Source: Halioglobus sp.
GTDB lineage: Bacteria > Pseudomonadota > Gammaproteobacteria > Pseudomonadales > Halieaceae
DNA length: 64,000 bases
NCBI GenBank assembly: GCA_029287595.1
Contig: JARFQU010000035.1
Location: 88-64,087 of the forward strand
Direction: 5' to 3'
Shown: positions 21,502-61,292 of the stretch, in pieces
Position numbering within the stretch: position 1 is the first letter of the stretch
Layout of the letters: each line of letters starts with the position of its first letter
Position numbers and translations under genes: made by a program
The notes under the pieces: model-generated
The model's database searches: none
Told to the model about the DNA's origin: nothing
The model's input: the letters and a program-made list of their open reading frames with translations, nothing else

Positions 21502-22600
21502 ATGCTCGAGATAAACCCGCTGCTTAACACACTCAAGGACATAGAGGCGCGTACTGACGTGCTTAGGGGGTATCTTTGACTTCGATAATCGCAAAGAGCG
21601 CCTCGCCGAGGTAGAGCTGGAGCTGGCTGAACCCAGCGTCTGGGATGATCCCGAGCGGGCCCAGGAGCTGGGGCGCGAGCGCTCATCCCTGGAAGCTATC
21701 GTCCACACCATAGAAAAGCTCGATATCGGCAGGGCGGATGCCAGCGACCTGCTGGAGATGGCGGCAGCGGAGGACGATGAAGCCACGGTGGAGGAAATCC
21801 AGGCGGAGGTAGATGGCCTGGTGGTGCAACTGGAGCAGTTGGAATTCCGCCGTATGTTCAACGGCGAGATGGATGCCAACAACGCCTTCCTCGACATACA
21901 GTCGGGCTCCGGTGGTACCGAGGCCCAGGACTGGGCAGAGATGTTGCTGCGTATGTACCTGCGCTGGGGAGAGGCCAGGGGGTTCAAGACCGAACTGATC
22001 GAATGTTCCGGTGGTGACGTAGCGGGCATCAAAAGCGCCACTATCAAGTTCGAGGGTGAGTATGCCTTTGGCTGGCTGCGCACCGAGACCGGTGTGCACC
22101 GCCTGGTGCGCAAGTCGCCCTTTGACTCCGGCAATCGTCGCCATACCTCCTTTGCCTCGGTGTTCGTGGCCCCGGAGATCGATGACAATATCGAGATAGA
22201 CATCAACCCGGCGGACCTGCGGGTGGATACCTACCGCGCCAGCGGCGCCGGTGGCCAGCACGTGAACAAGACCGACTCTGCGGTGCGCCTGACCCACAAC
22301 CCCAGCGGCATCGTGGTGCAGTGCCAGACCGAGCGCTCCCAGCATCAGAACCGGGACAATGCCATGAAGCTGTTGCGCGCCAAGTTATACGAGATGGAAA
22401 TTCTCAAGCGCAACGTGGAAAAACAGGCGATGGAAGACAGCAAGGCCGATATCGGCTGGGGCAGCCAGATCCGCTCCTACGTGCTGGATGCTTCGCGCAT
22501 CAAGGATTTGCGCACCAATGTCGAAACCAGCAACACCCAGGCGGTGCTGGATGGGAGTATTGATCAGTTTATCGAGGCCTCGCTGAAAAGCGGGCTGTAA
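21502..22600 (+). CDS. prfB: Peptide chain release factor 2 (requires programmed +1 frameshift at 21574-21580)
   Basis: ORF0 is [25 protein letters not shown] followed by TGA. The +1 frame continues [34 protein letters not shown]... into track ORF 21758..22600. SPF motif ([15 protein letters not shown]) and GGQ motif (SGAGGQHVN) are present. Confidence 0.95.
21562..21580 (+). promoter_or_regulatory. prfB: RF2 autoregulatory +1 frameshift site
   Basis: CTT AGG GGG TAT CTT TGA C: an internal SD-like AGGGGG, 3-nt spacer, slippery CUU and an in-frame UGA followed by C. This is identical in form to the E. coli prfB site. Confidence 0.92.
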
Positions 22601-24109: not shown

Positions 24110-24196
24110 GGCATCTCGCCACGCCCCTGGCAGGGTGCGCAATGCGCTGTGAATGCGCTACACTCCGGTGAGCATAACTGCCGAGGAAGTACGCTG

Positions 24197-24772
24197 TTGC
24201 CAGCCATTAGAACAAATGCCTTAGCCACTGCCGGCCTGCTGGTGTTGCTGCAGGCCTGTAGCTCAACCCCAGCGACGCAGCAGTCCGCAGCTGAGTCCGC
24301 ACCCGAAGCAGTGCCCGAGCTAACCTTGAACCTGCCTGAACAGGCTCAGGATTGTGCCTGTGTGGTTACCGAGGAAGCGGATTACACGTTCCTCGACAAA
24401 GGCTTCAATGCCCTGGTTGCCGGTGATCATATTGAGGCGGTGCAGTACTTCCAGCGTTACCAGCGACTTGAGTCGTCCCCCCAGGCAAACTGGGAGGCCG
24501 GTATCGCGATCGCCTATGACAGTATGTTGCCTGACAGCCCTTTTTACGACCCGGCGGCGGCGCGCACTGCCTATGGCAATCTCAAGGACCAACAGGTTGG
24601 GGGCGTGCCCATACACACCAAGGCCCTGATGATGCGTGATGCCCTGGAGACCTTCGTCGCCATGGAGCAACAGATCAGCGATCTGAAAAGTGATAATGCC
24701 CTGCTCAGGCAAGACCTGGAAAAACGCGAGGAGGCGCTCAAACGCCTGCGAGAGCTAACTCTGGGTCAGTAG
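24197..24772 (+). CDS. Hypothetical lipoprotein with C-terminal coiled coil
   Basis: Lipobox LLQAC after a hydrophobic stretch (PAIRTNALATAGLLVLLQAC). GAGGA sits at 24183-24187, so TTG 24197 or CTG 24194 is preferred over the track's GTG 24149. The C-terminus QQISDLKSDNALLRQDLEKREEALKRLRE is coiled-coil-like. No family recognised. Confidence 0.55.
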   Translation: MPAIRTNALATAGLLVLLQACSSTPATQQSAAESAPEAVPELTLNLPEQAQDCACVVTEEADYTFLDKGFNALVAGDHIEAVQYFQRYQRLESSPQANWEAGIAIAYDSMLPDSPFYDPAAARTAYGNLKDQQVGGVPIHTKALMMRDALETFVAMEQQISDLKSDNALLRQDLEKREEALKRLRELTLGQ

Positions 24773-26267
24773 GCAGCACCACCTTGAAAGTGGAGCCCTC
24801 ACCGGCAGCACTCTCCACCTGGATAGTGCCGCCCATCAGGTCGCAGTAATCCCGGCAGATAGCCAGTCCCAGTCCAGTGCCGCCATAGTTCGCGCTGGTG
24901 GAGACTTCGGCTTGCACGAAGGCCTCGAACACCCGTAGCTGTTGATCCTCGTTCATGCCTATGCCGGTATCGCGCACGGAAAACTCAACCCAGCCGGGAC
25001 GTTCTGCCAGCGGTCGGGCAGAAACACTGATGTAACCGTTTTCAGTAAACTTGCAGGCATTGCTCAACAGGTTGGTAAAAATCTGGCGGAATTTGGTAGC
25101 GTCGTTATACAGGGTAGGCAGGTGGCTGAAGTCGGATATTGCCAGCTCGTTGTTATTGTCGCGCAGCAGGGGTGCCAGCGCCTCGCACACCCCGGTGAGT
25201 ATCGCCCCTGGCTGGAACGTTTCACAGTGCAGGGACATTTTCCCCGTTTCGATCTTCGACAGGTCCAGAATGTCATTGATCAATGCCAGCAATTGACGCC
25301 CTGACATGATGATTTTTTCCAGATCGGTCTGGAACTGCTTGCGGTCCACTTGCTGTGGGTCGGTGAGTTCATCGTGCAGCATTTCACTGTAGCCGATGAT
25401 GGCATTCAACGGTGTGCGCAACTCGTGGCTGACGTTGGCCAGGAAAATACTCTTGGCGGCATTGGCCTCGTCGGCAGTGTCCCTGGCCTTGCTCACGTCG
25501 TAGATGGCGTTGCGCAACTTGTCGGACATGTCGTTGAATGCCTGGGCCAGGTCCCCCAGTTCGCCCGTGTCATCGATATTGTCGATGCGGTAGTTGAGGT
25601 CGCCGCTGCCAAAACGCTGGGTGCCGGTCTTCAGTCGCTTCAGCGAGGTATTGGTATAGCGCACCAGGAAAAACCCCAGGCTGGCAGTGAGGAAGATAGA
25701 TGCCAGGAAGCCGATCACCGTGATGCGATCGGTCAGGGCGATGGTGCGATCGATGATGTTGGCACGTTGTCCGGCGATAAAAGCCTGGCGCTGCTCCAGT
25801 TCCTGTAATCGTTGACTGGCTTCCAGGTAGGGCAGGGGATTATCCATGTCCATCTGCAGTTCGGGGTTGTTGTAGCCGCGATAGAAGGTCAGCCAGTCCT
25901 CCAGCAGCTTGCTGGAGCTGTCCCACAGCTGTTCGTAGTGCAGCTCGGTGACACTGTGGCTCAGTTTTCCCAGCTTCTCGATCTTGTTGATGATCCCGGA
26001 GATTTGTTGCTCGGCCTGCCGCAACTCGTCCCCGTCCAACTGGTCATCGGTGGACTCGCGCAGGGTTGACAGTACCAGGATCTGCTGGCGCTGGTCCTCT
26101 AGCAGTTGTTCGACTTCGGTAGACAGCTGTGCAGCGTCGACTGAATTACGGTAGGCGATCATGCTCTGGTTTCGCGCATAACTGCCCCAGAAATGGGTGC
26201 CCACGTTGCCCGCGAACAGAACCAGGATAGTGACCAGAGACAGGGTGAGTCGGCGTCGTAGACTCAT
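24738..26267 (-). CDS. Sensor histidine kinase (TM - helical periplasmic domain - TM - HAMP - HisKA - HATPase_c)
   Basis: H-box FLANVSHELRTPLNAIIGYSEML, N-box FTNLLSNACKF, G-boxes RDTGIGM and GGTGLGLAI. A HAMP-like GDLNYRIDNIDDTGELGDLAQAFNDM follows the second TM (ITVIGFLASIFLTASLGFFLV). Confidence 0.9.
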   Translation of the reverse strand: MSLRRRLTLSLVTILVLFAGNVGTHFWGSYARNQSMIAYRNSVDAAQLSTEVEQLLEDQRQQILVLSTLRESTDDQLDGDELRQAEQQISGIINKIEKLGKLSHSVTELHYEQLWDSSSKLLEDWLTFYRGYNNPELQMDMDNPLPYLEASQRLQELEQRQAFIAGQRANIIDRTIALTDRITVIGFLASIFLTASLGFFLVRYTNTSLKRLKTGTQRFGSGDLNYRIDNIDDTGELGDLAQAFNDMSDKLRNAIYDVSKARDTADEANAAKSIFLANVSHELRTPLNAIIGYSEMLHDELTDPQQVDRKQFQTDLEKIIMSGRQLLALINDILDLSKIETGKMSLHCETFQPGAILTGVCEALAPLLRDNNNELAISDFSHLPTLYNDATKFRQIFTNLLSNACKFTENGYISVSARPLAERPGWVEFSVRDTGIGMNEDQQLRVFEAFVQAEVSTSANYGGTGLGLAICRDYCDLMGGTIQVESAAGEGSTFKVVLPTDPELALAGV

Positions 26268-26638
26268 GCGCGGGAGAGTTTCTCGATTTTGATCAGCAAA
26301 CCGGGAAAATCAACGGGCTTGGTCGCATAGTCATCGCAGCCCGCTTGCAGTGCGTTGAGGCGGTCTGACTCCATGGCGTGCGCGGTCAGCGCGATAATCG
26401 GAATATGGCTGATACGCGGGTCCTCGCGGGCGCGGCGGCAGGCGGTCCAGCCATCCAGCACAGGCAGGTTCATATCCATCAATACCACGCGAGGTTGTTC
26501 GCTGACCATGGCATCCAGTGCCTGTTGCCCGTCTCCCGCGACAATGACCTCCACGCCGGCCCGGTTCAGTCGCCGTACCAGCATATCGCGGTTGAGTTCA
26601 TTGTCCTCGACCAGCAGTACCGGCGCCTGATTGGTCAC
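26264..26638 (-). CDS. Single-domain response regulator (receiver only)
   Basis: 124 aa: LLVEDNELNRD, phospho-acceptor context VVLMDMNLPVLDG, ALTAHA and YATKP. GTG start overlaps the cyclase stop (GTGA), and its stop overlaps the HK start (ATGA). Confidence 0.9.
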   Translation of the reverse strand: MTNQAPVLLVEDNELNRDMLVRRLNRAGVEVIVAGDGQQALDAMVSEQPRVVLMDMNLPVLDGWTACRRAREDPRISHIPIIALTAHAMESDRLNALQAGCDDYATKPVDFPGLLIKIEKLSRA

Positions 26639-28080
26639 AAGGCGCTCCCCAGTATCTGGTGCACCACGATGGACTCTTCTATGCCTTTCACCTTGAGCTC
26701 CTGGCAGTCGCCAACCAGAAAATCGCCCTTGAGGCTTTGCAGGGTGCTGTCGGACACCAGGATTCCGCCCCCGGCAGTGAGATCCTCTATGCGCGAGGTC
26801 ACATTCATGGCGTGACCGACAAAGCCGTATTTGCTGCGTCTTTCCGACCCTATATTGCCGGCGATGACGTCGCCCGTGTTGAGGGCTATCCCTGTCTTGA
26901 TTACCGGCAGGCCCTCGGCCTCATTGACTTCATTAATCTGGGCCATGGCAGCCTGCATCTCCAGGGCGCAGGAAACCGCCCGGTCGGCATCGTCGTCGCG
27001 ATGTTGGGGTGCGCCGAACACCGCGAGTATGGCGTCCCCGATAAACTCATCTATGGTGCCCTGGTGGGCCATGATGATGTCGGTCATGGCGCCCAGGTAA
27101 CGATTCAGCATGGTGACTACCTGGGCTGGTGCCAGGTGCTCACTGAGGGTGGTGAAACCGCGGATGTCTGACATCATGATGGTGACCCGGCGCAGATCGC
27201 CACCCAGCTCCAGGCCCTCGGGTCGTTCCAGTATGTCGGTGACGATTTCGTCGGACAGGTAGCGGCCGAAGGTGGCGCGGATGAATTTTTCGTTGCGCTC
27301 CAGCTGCTGCCGATACTGCTCTTCGCGATCGTGCCACCGCTTGCGCTCTATGCCGGCCTTGATACGCGCCTGCAGTAGTACCTGGTTGAAGGGTTTGAAC
27401 AGGTAGTCGTCGGCGCCGGCCTCAATGCACTCTATGATGCCGTCCATGTCCTGTTGACCGGAAATCACGATTACCGGGGTGGCCCGCCAATCCGGATGCT
27501 CCTTGATGCGGCGCAATACCTCCCGTCCGTCCATCCCCGGCATCAGCAGGTCCAGCAGTACCACGTCCACATCGCTTTGTTCCAGTGCGCGCAAGGCTTC
27601 CTCGCCGCTGGCAGCAGTAACCACGAAGTGACCGATGCGCGACAGGTTGCGGGCTACCAGCTCACGGTTTTCCTTCAGGTCGTCTACAGCCAGGATATAG
27701 CCCGGTTCGGATTCGATAACGCGCTTATCGCCGGAGTCACGCGACTTTCCGCTTCCGGGCTGGGCGGATTGCAGGGCCTTGAGCAGTCGGGCTAGGCTGT
27801 CACTGAGCTGGACCTGTTGCGCATCGAGATCTTCCTGCAGCAGTTCTGCGTAGCCGCGTATTGCGGCAAAAATGTTCATCAGGTCGTGGTTGTCGATATC
27901 CGCAGTCGCGCGCGCCAGCATCGCCTCCAGCCGGTTGCCGCCTTCGAACAGGCGGGAGAAATCCTCCAGGGACTCGGCGGGCAGGTGCTCCTGTGTGGCG
28001 GCAAAGGTGTCACGCAGTTCTACCAGTGCCCGGAGCAGGAGATCGCTCGATTGCGTGATGGTATGGTTACTGCCGGTCAC
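26635..28080 (-). CDS. H-box(DHp-like)/receiver/class III nucleotidyl cyclase fusion, predicted guanylate-cyclase-type specificity
   Basis: 481 aa. Residues ~55-105 carry an H-box-like HDLMNIFAAIRGYAELL (His65, 27886-27888). The REC domain has ILAVDD, VVLLDLLMPGMDG, VISG and YLFKP. The cyclase domain has metal Asps in MSDIRGFT and IGDAIL and transition-state N/R in AMNVTSR. Specificity positions are Glu345 (27046-27048, DEFIGD) and Gly419 (26824-26826, KYGFVG). Confidence 0.88.
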   Translation of the reverse strand: MTGSNHTITQSSDLLLRALVELRDTFAATQEHLPAESLEDFSRLFEGGNRLEAMLARATADIDNHDLMNIFAAIRGYAELLQEDLDAQQVQLSDSLARLLKALQSAQPGSGKSRDSGDKRVIESEPGYILAVDDLKENRELVARNLSRIGHFVVTAASGEEALRALEQSDVDVVLLDLLMPGMDGREVLRRIKEHPDWRATPVIVISGQQDMDGIIECIEAGADDYLFKPFNQVLLQARIKAGIERKRWHDREEQYRQQLERNEKFIRATFGRYLSDEIVTDILERPEGLELGGDLRRVTIMMSDIRGFTTLSEHLAPAQVVTMLNRYLGAMTDIIMAHQGTIDEFIGDAILAVFGAPQHRDDDADRAVSCALEMQAAMAQINEVNEAEGLPVIKTGIALNTGDVIAGNIGSERRSKYGFVGHAMNVTSRIEDLTAGGGILVSDSTLQSLKGDFLVGDCQELKVKGIEESIVVHQILGSAL

Positions 28081-28281
28081 GGTAGTGGAGTGTCCTTTCG
28101 GTGTTGTTATGGCGTTCCTCAGAGTATAACGAGGGCGGTGCCTGTGTGGAAACGCGGATTTTGCGTACTTTCGTGAAAGAAGCAGACCAAATTTGCTCTC
28201 AGAGGTGCGATTTTACAAAAGTTTAGGTTAGTATTATCGTCATAGCGTCAGTGATAGGGCTAACAAGGGTCGGGTGAATTA

Positions 28282-28929
28282 ATGTTAGAGCAAGTTGAAA
28301 TATTCCAGGGTCTGTCACAGGAAGAACTGGAGGCGCTGTCCGCCAGCAGTACCAGTCGCTCGTTTCCCAAAAATACGGTGGTAATTCATGAGAATGACCC
28401 CGCCGATTCGCTGTTCGTGATTGAGAGTGGCAAGGTCAAGGTCTACTGCAGCGACAAGAATGGCAAGGAGTTCATTATGAACACCCAGGGCGCCGGGGAT
28501 TATTTTGGCGAGCTGGCCCTGTTGGATGACTCCACCCGCTCGGCTTCGGTGCGCACGGTGGAGAAGTGTTCTTTCTGTATTATCTACAAGGAAGATTTCA
28601 ACCGCGTACTGGATGAGCACCCCAATATCGGCCGCCAGCTGGTGCGCAATCTGGCACAGCGCGTGCGCAAGCTCACCGCCGATGTGAAGAGTCTCGCGCT
28701 GCAGGACGTCTATGGCCGCGTGGCCAATGTGTTGATGGACCTGTCGGAAGAGCGCGGTGACGGCACGCTCTATATCCCAGAGAAATTGACCCAGCAGGAT
28801 ATAGCCGACCGCGTGGGTGCGTCCCGCGAGATGGTGGCGCGCATTCTCAAGGACCTGACCATCGGCGAATATATCCGCTTTGAGGGTCGCCACATCATTA
28901 TTAACACCCGCTTGCCCGCCAAGTACTGA
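28282..28929 (+). CDS. Crp/Fnr family cyclic-nucleotide-binding transcriptional regulator
   Basis: cNMP pocket motif FGELALLDDSTRSASV and a C-terminal HTH QQDIADRVGASREMVARILKDL that aligns with CRP [22 protein letters not shown]. It has no N-terminal Cys cluster, so it is not FNR-like. Confidence 0.9.
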   Translation: MLEQVEIFQGLSQEELEALSASSTSRSFPKNTVVIHENDPADSLFVIESGKVKVYCSDKNGKEFIMNTQGAGDYFGELALLDDSTRSASVRTVEKCSFCIIYKEDFNRVLDEHPNIGRQLVRNLAQRVRKLTADVKSLALQDVYGRVANVLMDLSEERGDGTLYIPEKLTQQDIADRVGASREMVARILKDLTIGEYIRFEGRHIIINTRLPAKY

Positions 28930-60881: not shown

Positions 60882-61292
60882 ATGGTCGCTGGCAAAGACA
60901 AGCCAGATATGGATACGCGGCAGAATATAGAATTGTTCGTCGACCGCTTTTACCAGCGCCTGCTTAAAGACGAACAGCTCGCCCCTATATTTGTCGATGT
61001 GGCCCAGATTGACCTCGCGGTGCACCTGCCTCACATCAAGGACTACTGGTGTAAGCTACTGCTGGGAGAGCAGTCCTATCAACGGCATACCATGAACATT
61101 CACCGGCAGTTGCACGGCAAGCGCGAGTTACATCCGGATGACTTCCAGCGCTGGTTGTCATTCTTTATCCGCACTGTCGATGAAAATTTTGCCGGTGAGC
61201 GCGCGGAGCGCGCCAAGCGGGTAGCTACCGCTATCGCCGCGAACATGGCAAAGAGCCTGTCAATCGATCCCACTAAAGTGGACCAGCAGTGA
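60882..61292 (+). CDS. Truncated hemoglobin (group III-like globin)
   Basis: FVDRFYQRLLKDEQLAPIF...HIKDYWCKLLLGEQSYQR...H...FQRWLSFF follows the trHb pattern (F-Y...D..L.PiF...W...LG...Y.G.....H....F..WL.LF) seen in Campylobacter Ctb as I recall it. Confidence 0.7.
   Translation: MVAGKDKPDMDTRQNIELFVDRFYQRLLKDEQLAPIFVDVAQIDLAVHLPHIKDYWCKLLLGEQSYQRHTMNIHRQLHGKRELHPDDFQRWLSFFIRTVDENFAGERAERAKRVATAIAANMAKSLSIDPTKVDQQ

What the first reader, a model, noticed from the sequence alone, without database searches (positions are those of the whole stretch)
26635..28080. Orphan H-box/DHp-like segment without an ATPase domain fused upstream of REC-cyclase: candidate built-in His-Asp-His-Asp relay
Residues ~55-105 read ...ADIDNHDLMNIFAAIRGYAELLQEDLDAQQVQLSDSLARLLKAL. 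The stretch HDLMNIFAAIRGYAELL aligns position by position with the neighbouring kinase's H-box HELRTPLNAIIGYSEML and with the common HDFNNLL-type H-box, and it retains the His (His65, 27886-27888). No N/G1/G2 ATP-binding boxes follow. A receiver domain follows directly. The operon also encodes a stand-alone receiver (26264-26638) and a non-hybrid HK. Inference: phosphate may flow HK-His -> single-domain REC-Asp -> His65 -> internal REC-Asp, making a Spo0F/Spo0B-like four-step relay whose output is nucleotide cyclisation. Alternatively the helix pair is only a dimerisation module for the obligately dimeric cyclase. I do not recognise a DHp-REC-class III cyclase arrangement as a characterised architecture.
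Basis: inference. Interest (0 to 1): 0.65.

Follow-up and report, generated by a model that had tools for sequence, protein, structure and literature searches.

The report
Kinase-less His-box domain on receiver-cyclase
A marine bacterial signalling enzyme that probably makes cGMP carries, in front of its receiver domain, a small helical domain copied from a histidine kinase's phosphorylation site but without the kinase engine. This domain most likely works as a built-in phosphate hand-over station in a four-step relay, though that has not been shown.

Summary
Residues 64-106 of the 481-aa protein (26635-28080, minus strand) are homologous to the HisKA/DHp H-box hairpin. His65 aligns with the phospho-His of the neighbouring kinase. 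No ATPase domain follows, and a complete receiver (Asp177, not Asp176) and a class III cyclase come next.

- **Conservation:** in 209 family members the N-terminal domain is the fastest-evolving folded part (mean identity 47%). His65, Asn69, Gly76 and Asp40 are nevertheless invariant.
- **Fold:** AlphaFold2 predicts a monomeric up-down four-helix bundle with His65 at the start of helix 3, not an obvious DHp dimer. Dimer prediction was not possible.
- **Distribution:** the cyclase / single receiver / kinase operon, with 4-nt overlaps, is found only in Halieaceae here and is always in the same place.
- **Co-evolution:** the N-terminal domain co-varies with the single receiver (partial r 0.47) and the kinase DHp (0.37), but hardly with its own receiver (0.13).
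- **Output:** the cyclase is Cya2-like, with the Glu345/Gly419 pair, so the product is probably cGMP. A very conserved CRP-family gene lies divergently upstream.

The His-Asp-His-Asp relay is the best-supported reading (about 0.45) but is unproven. A receiver-docking or phosphatase role, or a purely structural role, remains possible. I rate it a new variant of a known kind.

The parts
26635..28080 (-). Gene for the 481-aa protein: N-terminal four-helix H-box domain, flexible linker, receiver, coiled coil and cyclase-transducer element, then class III (Cya2-like) cyclase
   Evidence: ORF; Pfam Response_reg 129-240 and Guanylate_cyc 298-476; 209 orthologues with the same layout
27763..28074 (-). 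N-terminal helical domain, residues 3-106. Helices are 3-32, 35-56, 64-84 and 90-106. Predicted as an up-down four-helix bundle
   Evidence: AlphaFold2 on alignment A2: pLDDT about 85-94 in the helices, pTM 0.68. The same helices appear in the full-length model. Foldseek finds only generic four-helix bundles, E>=0.14
27829..27891 (-). H-box helix (residues 64-84, NHDLMNIFAAIRGYAELLQED), homologous to HisKA helix 1 from the phospho-His onward
   Evidence: Pfam HisKA; hhalign against the neighbouring kinase, E 6e-8; PDB profile alignment to histidine-kinase chains 4JAS and 5UKV
27886..27888 (-). His65 codon (CAC), the candidate phospho-accepting histidine. It begins the H-D-x-x-N motif together with Asn69 (27874-27876)
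   Evidence: His65 and Asn69 are invariant in 209 of 209 family members, while the domain averages 47% identity. Codons checked
27763..27813 (-). Helix 4 (residues 90-106), equivalent to the first part of DHp helix 2
   Evidence: The Pfam HisKA match runs to residue 102; AF2 helix 90-106
27703..27762 (-). Variable, disordered linker (residues 107-126) that tethers the receiver next to the His end of the bundle
   Evidence: pLDDT below 50; mean identity 25% and variable length
27361..27702 (-). Internal receiver domain (REC2, residues 127-240) with Asp133, Asp134, Asp177 (27550-27552), Ser207 and Lys229
   Evidence: Pfam Response_reg E 5.6e-28; the five residues are invariant in 209 sequences
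27190..27360 (-). Long helical linker and cyclase-transducer-like element (residues 241-297), the most conserved part of the protein
   Evidence: AF2 helices 233-271 and 277-284. It aligns with the segment preceding the cyclase domain in 6FHT. Mean identity 93%
26653..27189 (-). Class III cyclase catalytic domain (residues 298-476). Metal-binding Asp305 and Asp349, specificity pair Glu345/Gly419 with Lys417-Tyr418, and Asn426 and Arg430
   Evidence: Best solved relative is the Synechocystis Cya2 guanylate cyclase 2W01, E 5.7e-54 and 47% identity. All these residues are invariant. The Glu-Gly pair gives Cya2 its GTP preference (PMC6005667)
26264..26638 (-). Stand-alone 124-aa receiver (REC1), Asp55 (26474-26476), Thr85, Lys107. 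Its start overlaps the cyclase stop by 4 nt
   Evidence: Pfam Response_reg E 1.1e-25; residues; present downstream of the cyclase gene in all 80 loci from the genome scan, plus L081 and L082
24738..26267 (-). Membrane sensor histidine kinase (509 aa): TM1, a sensor region of about 155 aa, TM2 (182-202), HAMP, HisKA (His281, 25425-25427), HATPase_c. No receiver or HPt domain
   Evidence: Pfam. The best NCBIfam scores are to hybrid-kinase models TorS, BarA and LuxQ. Motifs
28282..28929 (+). Divergently transcribed CRP-family regulator (cNMP_binding plus HTH_Crp_2), the candidate receptor of the cyclase product
   Evidence: Pfam; 93-98% identical and syntenic in every locus that reaches upstream of the cyclase gene. 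The Arg86-Ser87 motif is kept, and Leu131-Thr132 replace CAP Thr127-Ser128

Best explanation
The N-terminal domain is a HisKA-derived phosphotransfer module that lacks a kinase domain. It is built into the terminal response regulator of a four-step relay.

Proposed path (all steps inferred):
1. The membrane kinase autophosphorylates on His281.
2. It passes the phosphoryl group to Asp55 of the 124-aa single receiver.
3. That receiver docks on the H-box hairpin of the cyclase protein and phosphorylates His65.
4. His65 hands the group to Asp177 of the receiver, which is tethered by a flexible linker of about 20 residues.
5. Phosphorylation of that receiver acts through the long conserved helix and the transducer element to align two catalytic domains and switch on a Cya2-type cyclase. 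The product is most likely cGMP, read by the adjacent CRP-family regulator.

Shown: the homology, the invariant His and Asn, complete catalytic residues in both receivers, the kinase and the cyclase, the operon structure, and the pattern of co-variation.

Inferred: every phosphotransfer step, the direction of flow, the oligomeric state of the bundle, and the nucleotide made.
For: 1. HisKA homology with His65 on the phospho-His position. Weak extra hits to the Spo0B-type SPOB_a profile appear in 15 of 34 sequences.
2. In 209 sequences the domain averages 47% identity (minimum 32%). His65, Asn69 (H+4), Gly76 and Asp40 are nevertheless 100% invariant, and Tyr77 and Glu79 about 100%. With 5 invariant columns out of 127 in A2, the chance that two given positions are both invariant is about 0.001 (my arithmetic).
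3. Only the part of the DHp from the His downward, where receivers dock in kinase-regulator complexes, is retained. The kinase-facing upper part and the CA domain are gone.
4. The operon supplies exactly the other three relay parts, translationally coupled. It is conserved in all 80 Halieaceae loci from the genome scan and in a second clade.
5. The kinase core scores best against hybrid kinases. The single receiver scores relatively better than the internal one against hybrid-kinase receivers and DivK.
6. Mirror-tree partial correlations over 60 loci, controlling for LysS, GuaB and XseA:
- N-domain with REC1: 0.47 (bootstrap 0.34-0.57, Mantel p 0.0005)
- N-domain with kinase DHp: 0.37
- REC1 with kinase DHp: 0.44
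- REC2 with kinase DHp: 0.05
- N-domain with REC2: 0.13
7. No Hpt domain turned up in the operon or among the 46 other large ORFs of the window scanned with Pfam.
Against: - No phosphotransfer was tested, and multimer modelling was unavailable.
- The window's own sequence stays below Pfam's HisKA gathering score (24.1 against 26.9 bits).
- The AF2 monomer is an intramolecular four-helix bundle that matches only generic bundles. No HPt, Spo0B or DHp structure appears in the top 50 Foldseek hits.
- His65 sits at the very N-terminus of its helix, which is atypical for DHp and HPt domains.
- Co-variation with the internal receiver, the proposed final acceptor, is near zero (0.13). The mirror-tree signal may partly reflect fast- and slow-evolving rate classes.
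- Both receivers carry the same alpha-1 signature, N-R-[DE]-[ML]-[LV]-x-R-x-L-x-R-x-G, so the kinase might phosphorylate both directly.
- All sequences come from one bacterial family, so conservation and synteny have limited phylogenetic depth.
- An HPt protein elsewhere in the genome cannot be excluded.
Confidence: 0.45

Rival explanations
1. The domain is a receiver-docking regulatory or phosphatase module in a branched pathway. The kinase phosphorylates both receivers directly, as DivJ/PleC do with DivK and PleD. The H-box domain then uses its H-D-x-x-N motif in one of two ways. It may dephosphorylate the attached or the single receiver, setting signal lifetime. Or it may bind the phosphorylated single receiver as an allosteric input, as the pseudokinase DivL binds DivK~P.
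For: - H-[E/D]-x-x-[T/N] is the HisKA motif in which the fifth residue is needed specifically for phosphatase activity (PMC3510030, listed). Asn69 is invariant and Asp66 is 95% conserved.
- Both receivers have PleD's first receiver as best solved relative, and the single receiver also hits DivK.
- The two receivers share the alpha-1 docking signature, so one kinase could serve both.
- Co-variation of the N-domain with REC1 fits binding as well as it fits transfer.
Against: - REC2 shows no co-variation with the kinase DHp (0.05), whereas REC1 does (0.44). That is not what a direct kinase-REC2 pair predicts.
- A docking-only role would not require the His. DivL has Tyr at that position (my recollection).
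- The kinase is itself a canonical HisKA enzyme with HELRT and could supply phosphatase activity.
Confidence: 0.25
2. The domain is a structural relic. It descends from a degraded histidine kinase and now only stabilises, dimerises or autoinhibits the cyclase. The His plays no chemical role.
For: - Class III cyclases act as dimers, and N-terminal helical bundles often set the dimer register.
- The HisKA score is below threshold and the domain evolves fast.
- The predicted fold is a generic four-helix bundle.
Against: - The invariant positions are exactly the catalytic H-box ones (His65, Asn69, Gly76, Tyr77, Glu79), while the rest of the domain drifts down to 32% identity.
- The receiver, long helix and transducer element already provide the usual dimerisation and activation route.
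- The domain co-varies with REC1 and the kinase rather than with its own cyclase.
Confidence: 0.15
3. This is a split kinase. The CA domain of the neighbouring kinase, or a heterodimer between the two DHp-like modules, phosphorylates His65 directly with ATP. His65 then phosphorylates Asp177, and the single receiver acts as a sink.
For: - The H-box helix is close to canonical and resembles the neighbour's: HELRTPLNAIIGYSEML against HDLMNIFAAIRGYAELL.
- The N-domain co-varies with the kinase DHp (0.37) and HAMP (0.37).
Against: - The segment of helix 1 above the His and the upper part of helix 2, which hold the CA domain in kinases, are missing.
- The monomer model closes the hairpin with its own helices 1-2, leaving no free face for a heterodimer.
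- The strongest co-variation is with REC1, not with the CA domain (0.27).
Confidence: 0.05

Closest known systems
Spo0F-Spo0B-Spo0A (Bacillus) and CckA-ChpT-CtrA (Caulobacter) phosphorelays
   Same: A His on a DHp-type helical hairpin, with no ATP-driven autophosphorylation, would shuttle phosphate from an intermediate receiver to a terminal receiver. The H-D-x-M-N motif resembles the Spo0B-type profile (weak SPOB_a hits).
   Different: - Spo0B and ChpT are separate dimeric proteins with a C-terminal pseudo-CA domain. Here the module is fused N-terminally to the terminal regulator and has no CA-like domain.
- It has two extra N-terminal helices and is predicted to close its bundle within one chain.
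- The intermediate receiver is a separate protein, as Spo0F is.
Hybrid-kinase / HPt relays (ArcB, BarA-UvrY, TorS-TorR, LuxQ-LuxU-LuxO)
   Same: Four-step His-Asp-His-Asp logic. The kinase core scores best against these hybrid kinases. A four-helix bundle would carry the second His.
   Different: - The kinase and its receiver are split into two genes.
- The second His lies on a HisKA-derived sequence, not a Pfam Hpt domain. There is no Hpt hit at E<=1 and no HPt structure among the top Foldseek hits.
- The module is fused to the output regulator rather than to the kinase.
Cyanobacterial CyaC and Dictyostelium ACR (cyclases with kinase and receiver domains)
   Same: A class III cyclase sits in the same polypeptide as His-Asp phosphotransfer domains. 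[quoted passage not shown] The CyaC layout is from my own knowledge.
   Different: Those proteins carry a complete kinase with its ATPase domain. Here only the H-box hairpin is present and ATP-dependent phosphorylation must come from another protein.
Synechocystis Cya2 guanylate cyclase (PDB 2W01)
   Same: 47% identity over the catalytic domain and the same preceding transducer segment. It shares the Glu-Gly specificity pair with the supporting Lys-Tyr, and the Asn and Arg catalytic residues.
   Different: Cya2 is regulated by an extracellular CHASE2 domain through membrane helices (PMC6005667). Here the input is a receiver domain plus the H-box domain.
Rhodospirillum centenum gcyB-gcyC-cgrA cGMP module
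   Same: Guanylate cyclase genes lie next to a CRP-family regulator that responds to cGMP (PMC10187061).
   Different: In R. centenum the cyclase genes and cgrA are in one operon whose promoter has a perfect CAP site. Here the CRP gene is divergent, and no site beyond chance was found. The ligand of this CRP is unknown.
DivJ/PleC-DivK-PleD and the pseudokinase DivL
   Same: One kinase, a single-domain receiver and a receiver-fused nucleotide cyclase. A DHp-like surface would be used to bind a phosphorylated single receiver.
   Different: PleD has no H-box domain. DivL is a full kinase-like protein with Tyr in place of His (my recollection). The output there is c-di-GMP through a GGDEF domain.

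Membership tests
HisKA / DHp domain (PF00512) | H-box with the phospho-accepting His in register with the family consensus | tested here: met
   His65 aligns to the kinase His in Pfam, PDB-profile and hhalign comparisons. The consensus H-[DE]-L-x-[TN]-x-L-x-A-I-x-G-Y-x-E-x-L is matched.
HisKA / DHp domain (PF00512) | Score at or above Pfam's gathering threshold over the whole domain | tested here: inconclusive
   The window scores 19.3 bits (full protein) or 24.1 bits (isolated domain) against a cut-off of 26.9. Only profile positions 11-49 of 66 are covered. All 34 of 34 relatives hit, best E 5.4e-8, and many orthologues carry a precomputed PF00512 hit.
HisKA / DHp domain (PF00512) | Helix-loop-helix hairpin that forms a homodimeric four-helix bundle | not testable with these tools
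   A hairpin is predicted (helices 64-84 and 90-106). The monomer model packs it against helices 3-32 and 35-56 of the same chain. No multimer prediction was available.
Sensor histidine kinase | A catalytic ATP-binding (HATPase_c) domain with N, G1 and G2 boxes after the DHp | tested here: not met
   No HATPase_c hit at E<=1. Only about 20 disordered residues lie between helix 4 and the receiver.
Spo0B/ChpT-type histidine phosphotransferase | DHp-like hairpin with a conserved His | tested here: met
   The SPOB_a profile hits 15 of 34 members only weakly (best E 0.0013).
Spo0B/ChpT-type histidine phosphotransferase | C-terminal alpha/beta pseudo-CA domain | tested here: not met
   A receiver follows directly after the linker.
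Spo0B/ChpT-type histidine phosphotransferase | Accepts phosphate from one receiver and donates it to another | not testable with these tools
   The only indirect evidence is co-variation with REC1 (0.47) but not REC2 (0.13).
HPt domain (PF01627) | Match to the Hpt profile | tested here: not met
   No Hpt hit at E<=1 for the window protein, and Hpt is not among the 25 families that most of the 34 relatives match.
HPt domain (PF01627) | Monomeric four-helix bundle with an exposed His | tested here: inconclusive
   The AF2 model is a monomeric up-down four-helix bundle (pTM 0.68). Foldseek returns only generic bundles at E>=0.14, with no HPt structure in the top 50. Exposure of His65 could not be measured.
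Receiver (REC) domain, both copies | Acidic pair, phospho-acceptor Asp, Ser/Thr and Lys | tested here: met
   REC2 has D133, D134, D177, S207 and K229, invariant in 209 sequences. REC1 has E11-D12, D55, T85 and K107. Pfam E values are 5.6e-28 and 1.1e-25.
Class III nucleotide cyclase, Cya2-type guanylate cyclase | Two metal-binding Asp and the transition-state Asn and Arg | tested here: met
   D305, D349, N426 and R430 are invariant.
Class III nucleotide cyclase, Cya2-type guanylate cyclase | Glu-Gly base-specificity pair, where adenylate cyclases have Lys-Asp/Thr | tested here: met
   E345 and G419, with K417-Y418, align to the Cya2 residues. The engineered adenylate-cyclase chain 6FHT has Lys at the Glu position. 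These residues are invariant in 209 sequences. The role of the pair is from PMC6005667.
Class III nucleotide cyclase, Cya2-type guanylate cyclase | Measured preference for GTP | not testable with these tools
   This needs an enzyme assay.

The most novel reading that the evidence does not exclude
Halieaceae carry a complete, self-contained cGMP pathway. A membrane sensor kinase feeds a split four-step relay. Its second histidine sits on a single-chain, HisKA-derived four-helix bundle, a DHp that has become a monomeric functional equivalent of HPt and is fused to the final regulator. The relay switches on a Cya2-type guanylate cyclase. The cGMP made is read by the neighbouring, extremely conserved CRP-family regulator, which has Leu-Thr in place of the adenine-contacting Thr-Ser.
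Probability: 0.2. Interest if true: 0.8.

Novelty: new variant of a known kind. Interest (0 to 1): 0.6.

Why it matters
**An intermediate in HPt evolution.** If the relay is real, a DHp hairpin can be cut loose from its kinase, closed into its own bundle and fused to the output regulator. That would be an evolutionary intermediate between dimeric Spo0B/ChpT-type phosphotransferases and monomeric HPt domains. It would also make the second His-Asp step intramolecular. This gives a simple, testable system for asking how relay steps are insulated.

**A candidate bacterial cGMP pathway.** The output domain carries the specificity residues of one of the few proven bacterial guanylate cyclases. It sits next to a CRP-family regulator in every member of an abundant group of coastal marine Gammaproteobacteria. 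Bacterial cGMP signalling is known from only a handful of cases, so a family-wide, two-component-controlled example with a candidate receptor would be a useful addition.

Tried and rejected
- **Internal duplication.** I tested whether helices 1-2 are a degenerate copy of the H-box hairpin. hhalign gave probability 1.9%, P 0.026, so this is not supported.
- **Fold search.** Foldseek of the N-domain model against the PDB returned only generic four-helix bundles (copper storage proteins, designed bundles), all at E>=0.14. No fold-level assignment is possible.
- **Sequence search of the PDB** with the single N-terminal sequence found nothing meaningful.
- **Exhaustive search of 1.84 billion representatives** with residues 1-125 found only 42 hits. 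Those I read (13 sequences) were fragments of this same family or one repeat protein. No other architecture carrying the domain was seen.
- **Looking for relatives that lack the N-domain or the single receiver,** as a natural experiment. All 80 loci from the genome scan and the second clade have the identical layout, so no such contrast exists in the data reached.
- **Intermediate versus terminal receiver.** The published 'FATGUY' signature is specific to the CckA family and not general (PMC9981736), so I did not use it.
- **CRP-type site.** TGTGA-N6-TCACA gave 21 matches with up to 2 mismatches in the window, against 21.5 expected. The only intergenic match, at 28250-28265, has 2 mismatches, so this is uninformative.
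- **Hpt or other signalling genes elsewhere in the window.** None was found among the 46 ORFs scanned outside the operon region; all that had a Pfam match are housekeeping genes. Twelve small ORFs and secF were not scanned.
- **Literature.** Searches for a described HisKA-only, receiver, cyclase architecture found none. They did show that 'incomplete kinases' lacking HATPase are a recognised class in P2CS.
Full report
**What is at the coordinates.** The minus-strand ORF 26635-28080 encodes a 481-aa protein. Pfam finds a receiver domain (residues 129-240, E 5.6e-28) and a class III cyclase domain (298-476, E 7.8e-28). It also finds a sub-threshold HisKA match on residues 65-102, covering profile positions 11-49 of 66 (E 0.0012, 19.3 bits, cut-off 26.9). 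No HATPase_c hit appears even at E<=1.

The next two genes overlap by 4 nt each. They encode a 124-aa single receiver (26264-26638) and a 509-aa TM-HAMP-HisKA-HATPase kinase (24738-26267). His65 is the CAC codon at 27886-27888.

**Is the H-box resemblance more than chance?** Yes, on four lines of evidence.
- The isolated N-terminus scores E 3.7e-5 against HisKA.
- All 34 diverse N-terminal sequences of the family hit HisKA, best E 5.4e-8. Fifteen of them also touch the Spo0B-type SPOB_a profile weakly.
- A profile of the family aligned to the neighbouring kinase's DHp gives hhalign probability 94.7%, E 6e-8, with His65 on the kinase's His281.
- A profile search of PDB sequences aligns His65 to the 'SHELRTPL' histidine of a solved histidine kinase (4JAS) and of the DHp chain 5UKV.

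The match starts at the His. The stretch of helix 1 that precedes the His in real kinases is replaced by a variable loop.

**Shape of the domain.** AlphaFold2 was run on the full-length alignment and on the N-terminal alignment. Both give the same four helices (3-32, 35-56, 64-84, 90-106), with pLDDT about 85-94 and pTM 0.68 for the isolated domain. A disordered linker follows at 107-126.

The monomer model is an up-down four-helix bundle. Foldseek against the PDB returns only generic bundles at E>=0.14, with no HPt, Spo0B or DHp entry in the top 50. The domain is therefore not just a helix pair. Whether the hairpin pairs with its own helices 1-2 or with a second chain could not be tested, because no multimer tool was available. 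An internal duplication of the hairpin is not supported.

**Conservation.** Two protein searches gave 208 full-length relatives, all 440-540 aa with the same layout. In the alignment of 209 sequences the mean identity to the window protein differs sharply by region.

| Region | Mean identity |
|---|---|
| N-terminal domain | 47% (minimum 32%) |
| Linker | 25% |
| Receiver (REC2) | 85% |
| Helical linker / transducer element | 93% |
| Cyclase | 76% |

Within the fast-evolving N-domain, His65, Asn69, Gly76 and Asp40 are invariant. Tyr77 and Glu79 are invariant but for one sequence each, and Asp66 is 95% conserved. These are the H-box positions: H, H+1, H+4 and the G-Y-x-E of the consensus. That is hard to reconcile with a purely structural helix.

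**Distribution and context.** The exhaustive search of 1.84 billion representative proteins with residues 1-125 found only 42 hits. Those I read were fragments of this same family or an unrelated repeat protein. A scan of one genome per species returned 80 loci, nearly all labelled Halieaceae or unclassified Gammaproteobacteria: Halioglobus, Haliea, Seongchinamella, Pseudohalioglobus, Kineobactrum, Mangrovimicrobium and Sediminihaliea.

Wherever the contig is long enough, the order is guaB, xseA, crp (divergent), cyclase, REC, kinase, a convergent lipoprotein-like gene, then lysS. A more divergent clade has the same order and the same 4-nt overlaps. The module is thus a fixed, family-wide feature in a housekeeping neighbourhood. 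The rest of the window is housekeeping as well, and no Hpt gene was found among the ORFs scanned. The drawback is that no natural variant lacking one part was available for comparison.

**Who talks to whom?** The kinase core scores best against hybrid-kinase models (TorS, BarA, LuxQ). The single receiver scores relatively better than the internal receiver against hybrid-kinase receivers and DivK. The two receivers are 34% identical. They share a conserved alpha-1 signature, N-R-[DE]-[ML]-[LV]-x-R-x-L-x-R-x-G, so both could dock on the same type of DHp surface.

I computed pairwise distances per domain over 60 complete loci and removed the component explained by LysS, GuaB and XseA.

| Domain pair | Residual correlation |
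|---|---|
| N-domain and single receiver (REC1) | 0.47 (bootstrap 0.34-0.57; Mantel p 0.0005) |
| N-domain and kinase DHp | 0.37 |
| N-domain and its own receiver (REC2) | 0.13 |
| N-domain and its own linker / transducer element | -0.04 |
| REC1 and kinase DHp | 0.44 |
| REC2 and kinase DHp | 0.05 |

This fits a chain of kinase, single receiver, N-domain. It argues mildly against a direct kinase-REC2 pairing. The evidence is weak, however. Mirror-tree signals can reflect shared rate classes, and the last proposed link (N-domain to REC2) is not seen.

**Most likely mechanism.** The kinase's His281 passes phosphate to Asp55 of the single receiver, which passes it to His65 on a kinase-less, HisKA-derived bundle. 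His65 passes it to the tethered Asp177. Activation of the cyclase then runs through the highly conserved helix and transducer element that also precede the Cya2 catalytic domain. I put this at about 0.45.

The main rival, at about 0.25, is a branched DivK/PleD-like design. There the H-box domain docks or dephosphorylates a receiver, and its H-D-x-x-N motif is the HisKA phosphatase motif. A purely structural relic (0.15) is disfavoured by the pattern of invariance. Direct phosphorylation of His65 by the neighbour's ATPase domain (0.05) is disfavoured because the parts of a DHp that hold the ATPase domain are missing.

**The output.** The catalytic domain's best solved relative is the Synechocystis guanylate cyclase Cya2 (2W01, E 5.7e-54, 47% identity). 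The window protein keeps Cya2's Glu-Gly base-specificity pair (Glu345, Gly419) with the adjacent Lys417-Tyr418. The engineered adenylate-cyclase version 6FHT has Lys at the Glu position. All these residues, together with the metal-binding Asp and the Asn and Arg, are invariant in 209 sequences. The review PMC6005667 states that this pair underlies Cya2's strong GTP preference. The product is therefore probably cGMP, and the databases' 'adenylate cyclase' label is likely wrong.

**The neighbouring regulator.** The divergent CRP-family gene (28282-28929) is 93-98% identical across the family, more conserved than GuaB. It keeps the phosphate-binding Arg-Ser. It has Leu131-Thr132 where CAP has the adenine-contacting Thr127-Ser128, and this is invariant in 60 loci (CAP residues from PMC10187061). 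Whether it reads cGMP is untested. No CAP-type site beyond chance lies in the intergenic region.

**Comparison with known systems.** In function, the closest are the Spo0F-Spo0B-Spo0A and CckA-ChpT-CtrA relays and the hybrid-kinase/HPt relays. In architecture, the closest are cyclases that carry full kinase and receiver domains, namely cyanobacterial CyaC and Dictyostelium ACR (PMC3009899).

This protein is not a member of any of these families. It lacks the ATPase domain of kinases and the pseudo-CA domain of Spo0B and ChpT. It does not match the Hpt profile. 'Incomplete kinases' lacking HATPase are a recognised bookkeeping class, but I found no paper that describes a HisKA-only, receiver, cyclase protein.

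**Verdict.** The finding is a new variant of a known kind (a phosphorelay), with an unexpected probable cGMP output. Interest 0.6.

Noticed in passing
window 26653-27189 (-), residues 298-476: The cyclase domain is Cya2-like (47% identity to PDB 2W01). It has the Glu345/Gly419 specificity pair with Lys417-Tyr418, invariant in 209 relatives. It is probably a guanylate cyclase, although public records call it an adenylate cyclase.
   Followed up: yes
window 28282-28929 (+): The divergently transcribed CRP-family regulator is 93-98% identical across Halieaceae, more conserved than GuaB. It keeps the Arg86-Ser87 motif but has invariant Leu131-Thr132 where E. coli CAP has the adenine-contacting Thr127-Ser128. 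It may be the receptor of the cyclase product.
   Followed up: partly
window 24149-24772 (+): A convergent 207-aa ORF has a lipoprotein-like signal (LLQAC) and a coiled-coil tail. It overlaps the 3' end of the kinase gene by 35 nt. It is syntenic in nearly every locus that extends past the kinase gene, fast-evolving (41-65% identity), and has no significant Pfam match (only two weak hits, E 0.098 and 0.2).
   Followed up: partly
window 21503-22600 (+), site at about 21565-21580: prfB (release factor 2) carries the classic programmed +1 frameshift site AGGGGGTATCTTTGAC. This explains why the ORF list shows only a 280-aa piece.
   Followed up: partly
window 27961-27963 (-), Asp40 of the cyclase protein: Asp40, at the start of helix 2 in the motif [ED]-D-F-S-x-L-F, is the only invariant residue of the N-terminal domain outside the H-box helix. 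Its role is unexplained. In an up-down bundle it would lie at the opposite end from His65.
   Followed up: no
window 1-64000: Apart from the three-gene operon and crp, every scanned gene with a Pfam match is housekeeping: queA, tgt, rimM, trmD, dsbC, hom, thrC, recJ, prfB, lysS, xseA, guaBA, purL, secD, iscRS, hscBA, rlmN, ispG, hisS, bamB and der. The signalling module is an island in a conserved core region.
   Followed up: yes
window 60882-61292 (+): A small bacterial-type globin ORF (Bac_globin, E 6.4e-6) sits just upstream of an ABC transporter pair. I did not examine it further.
   Followed up: no
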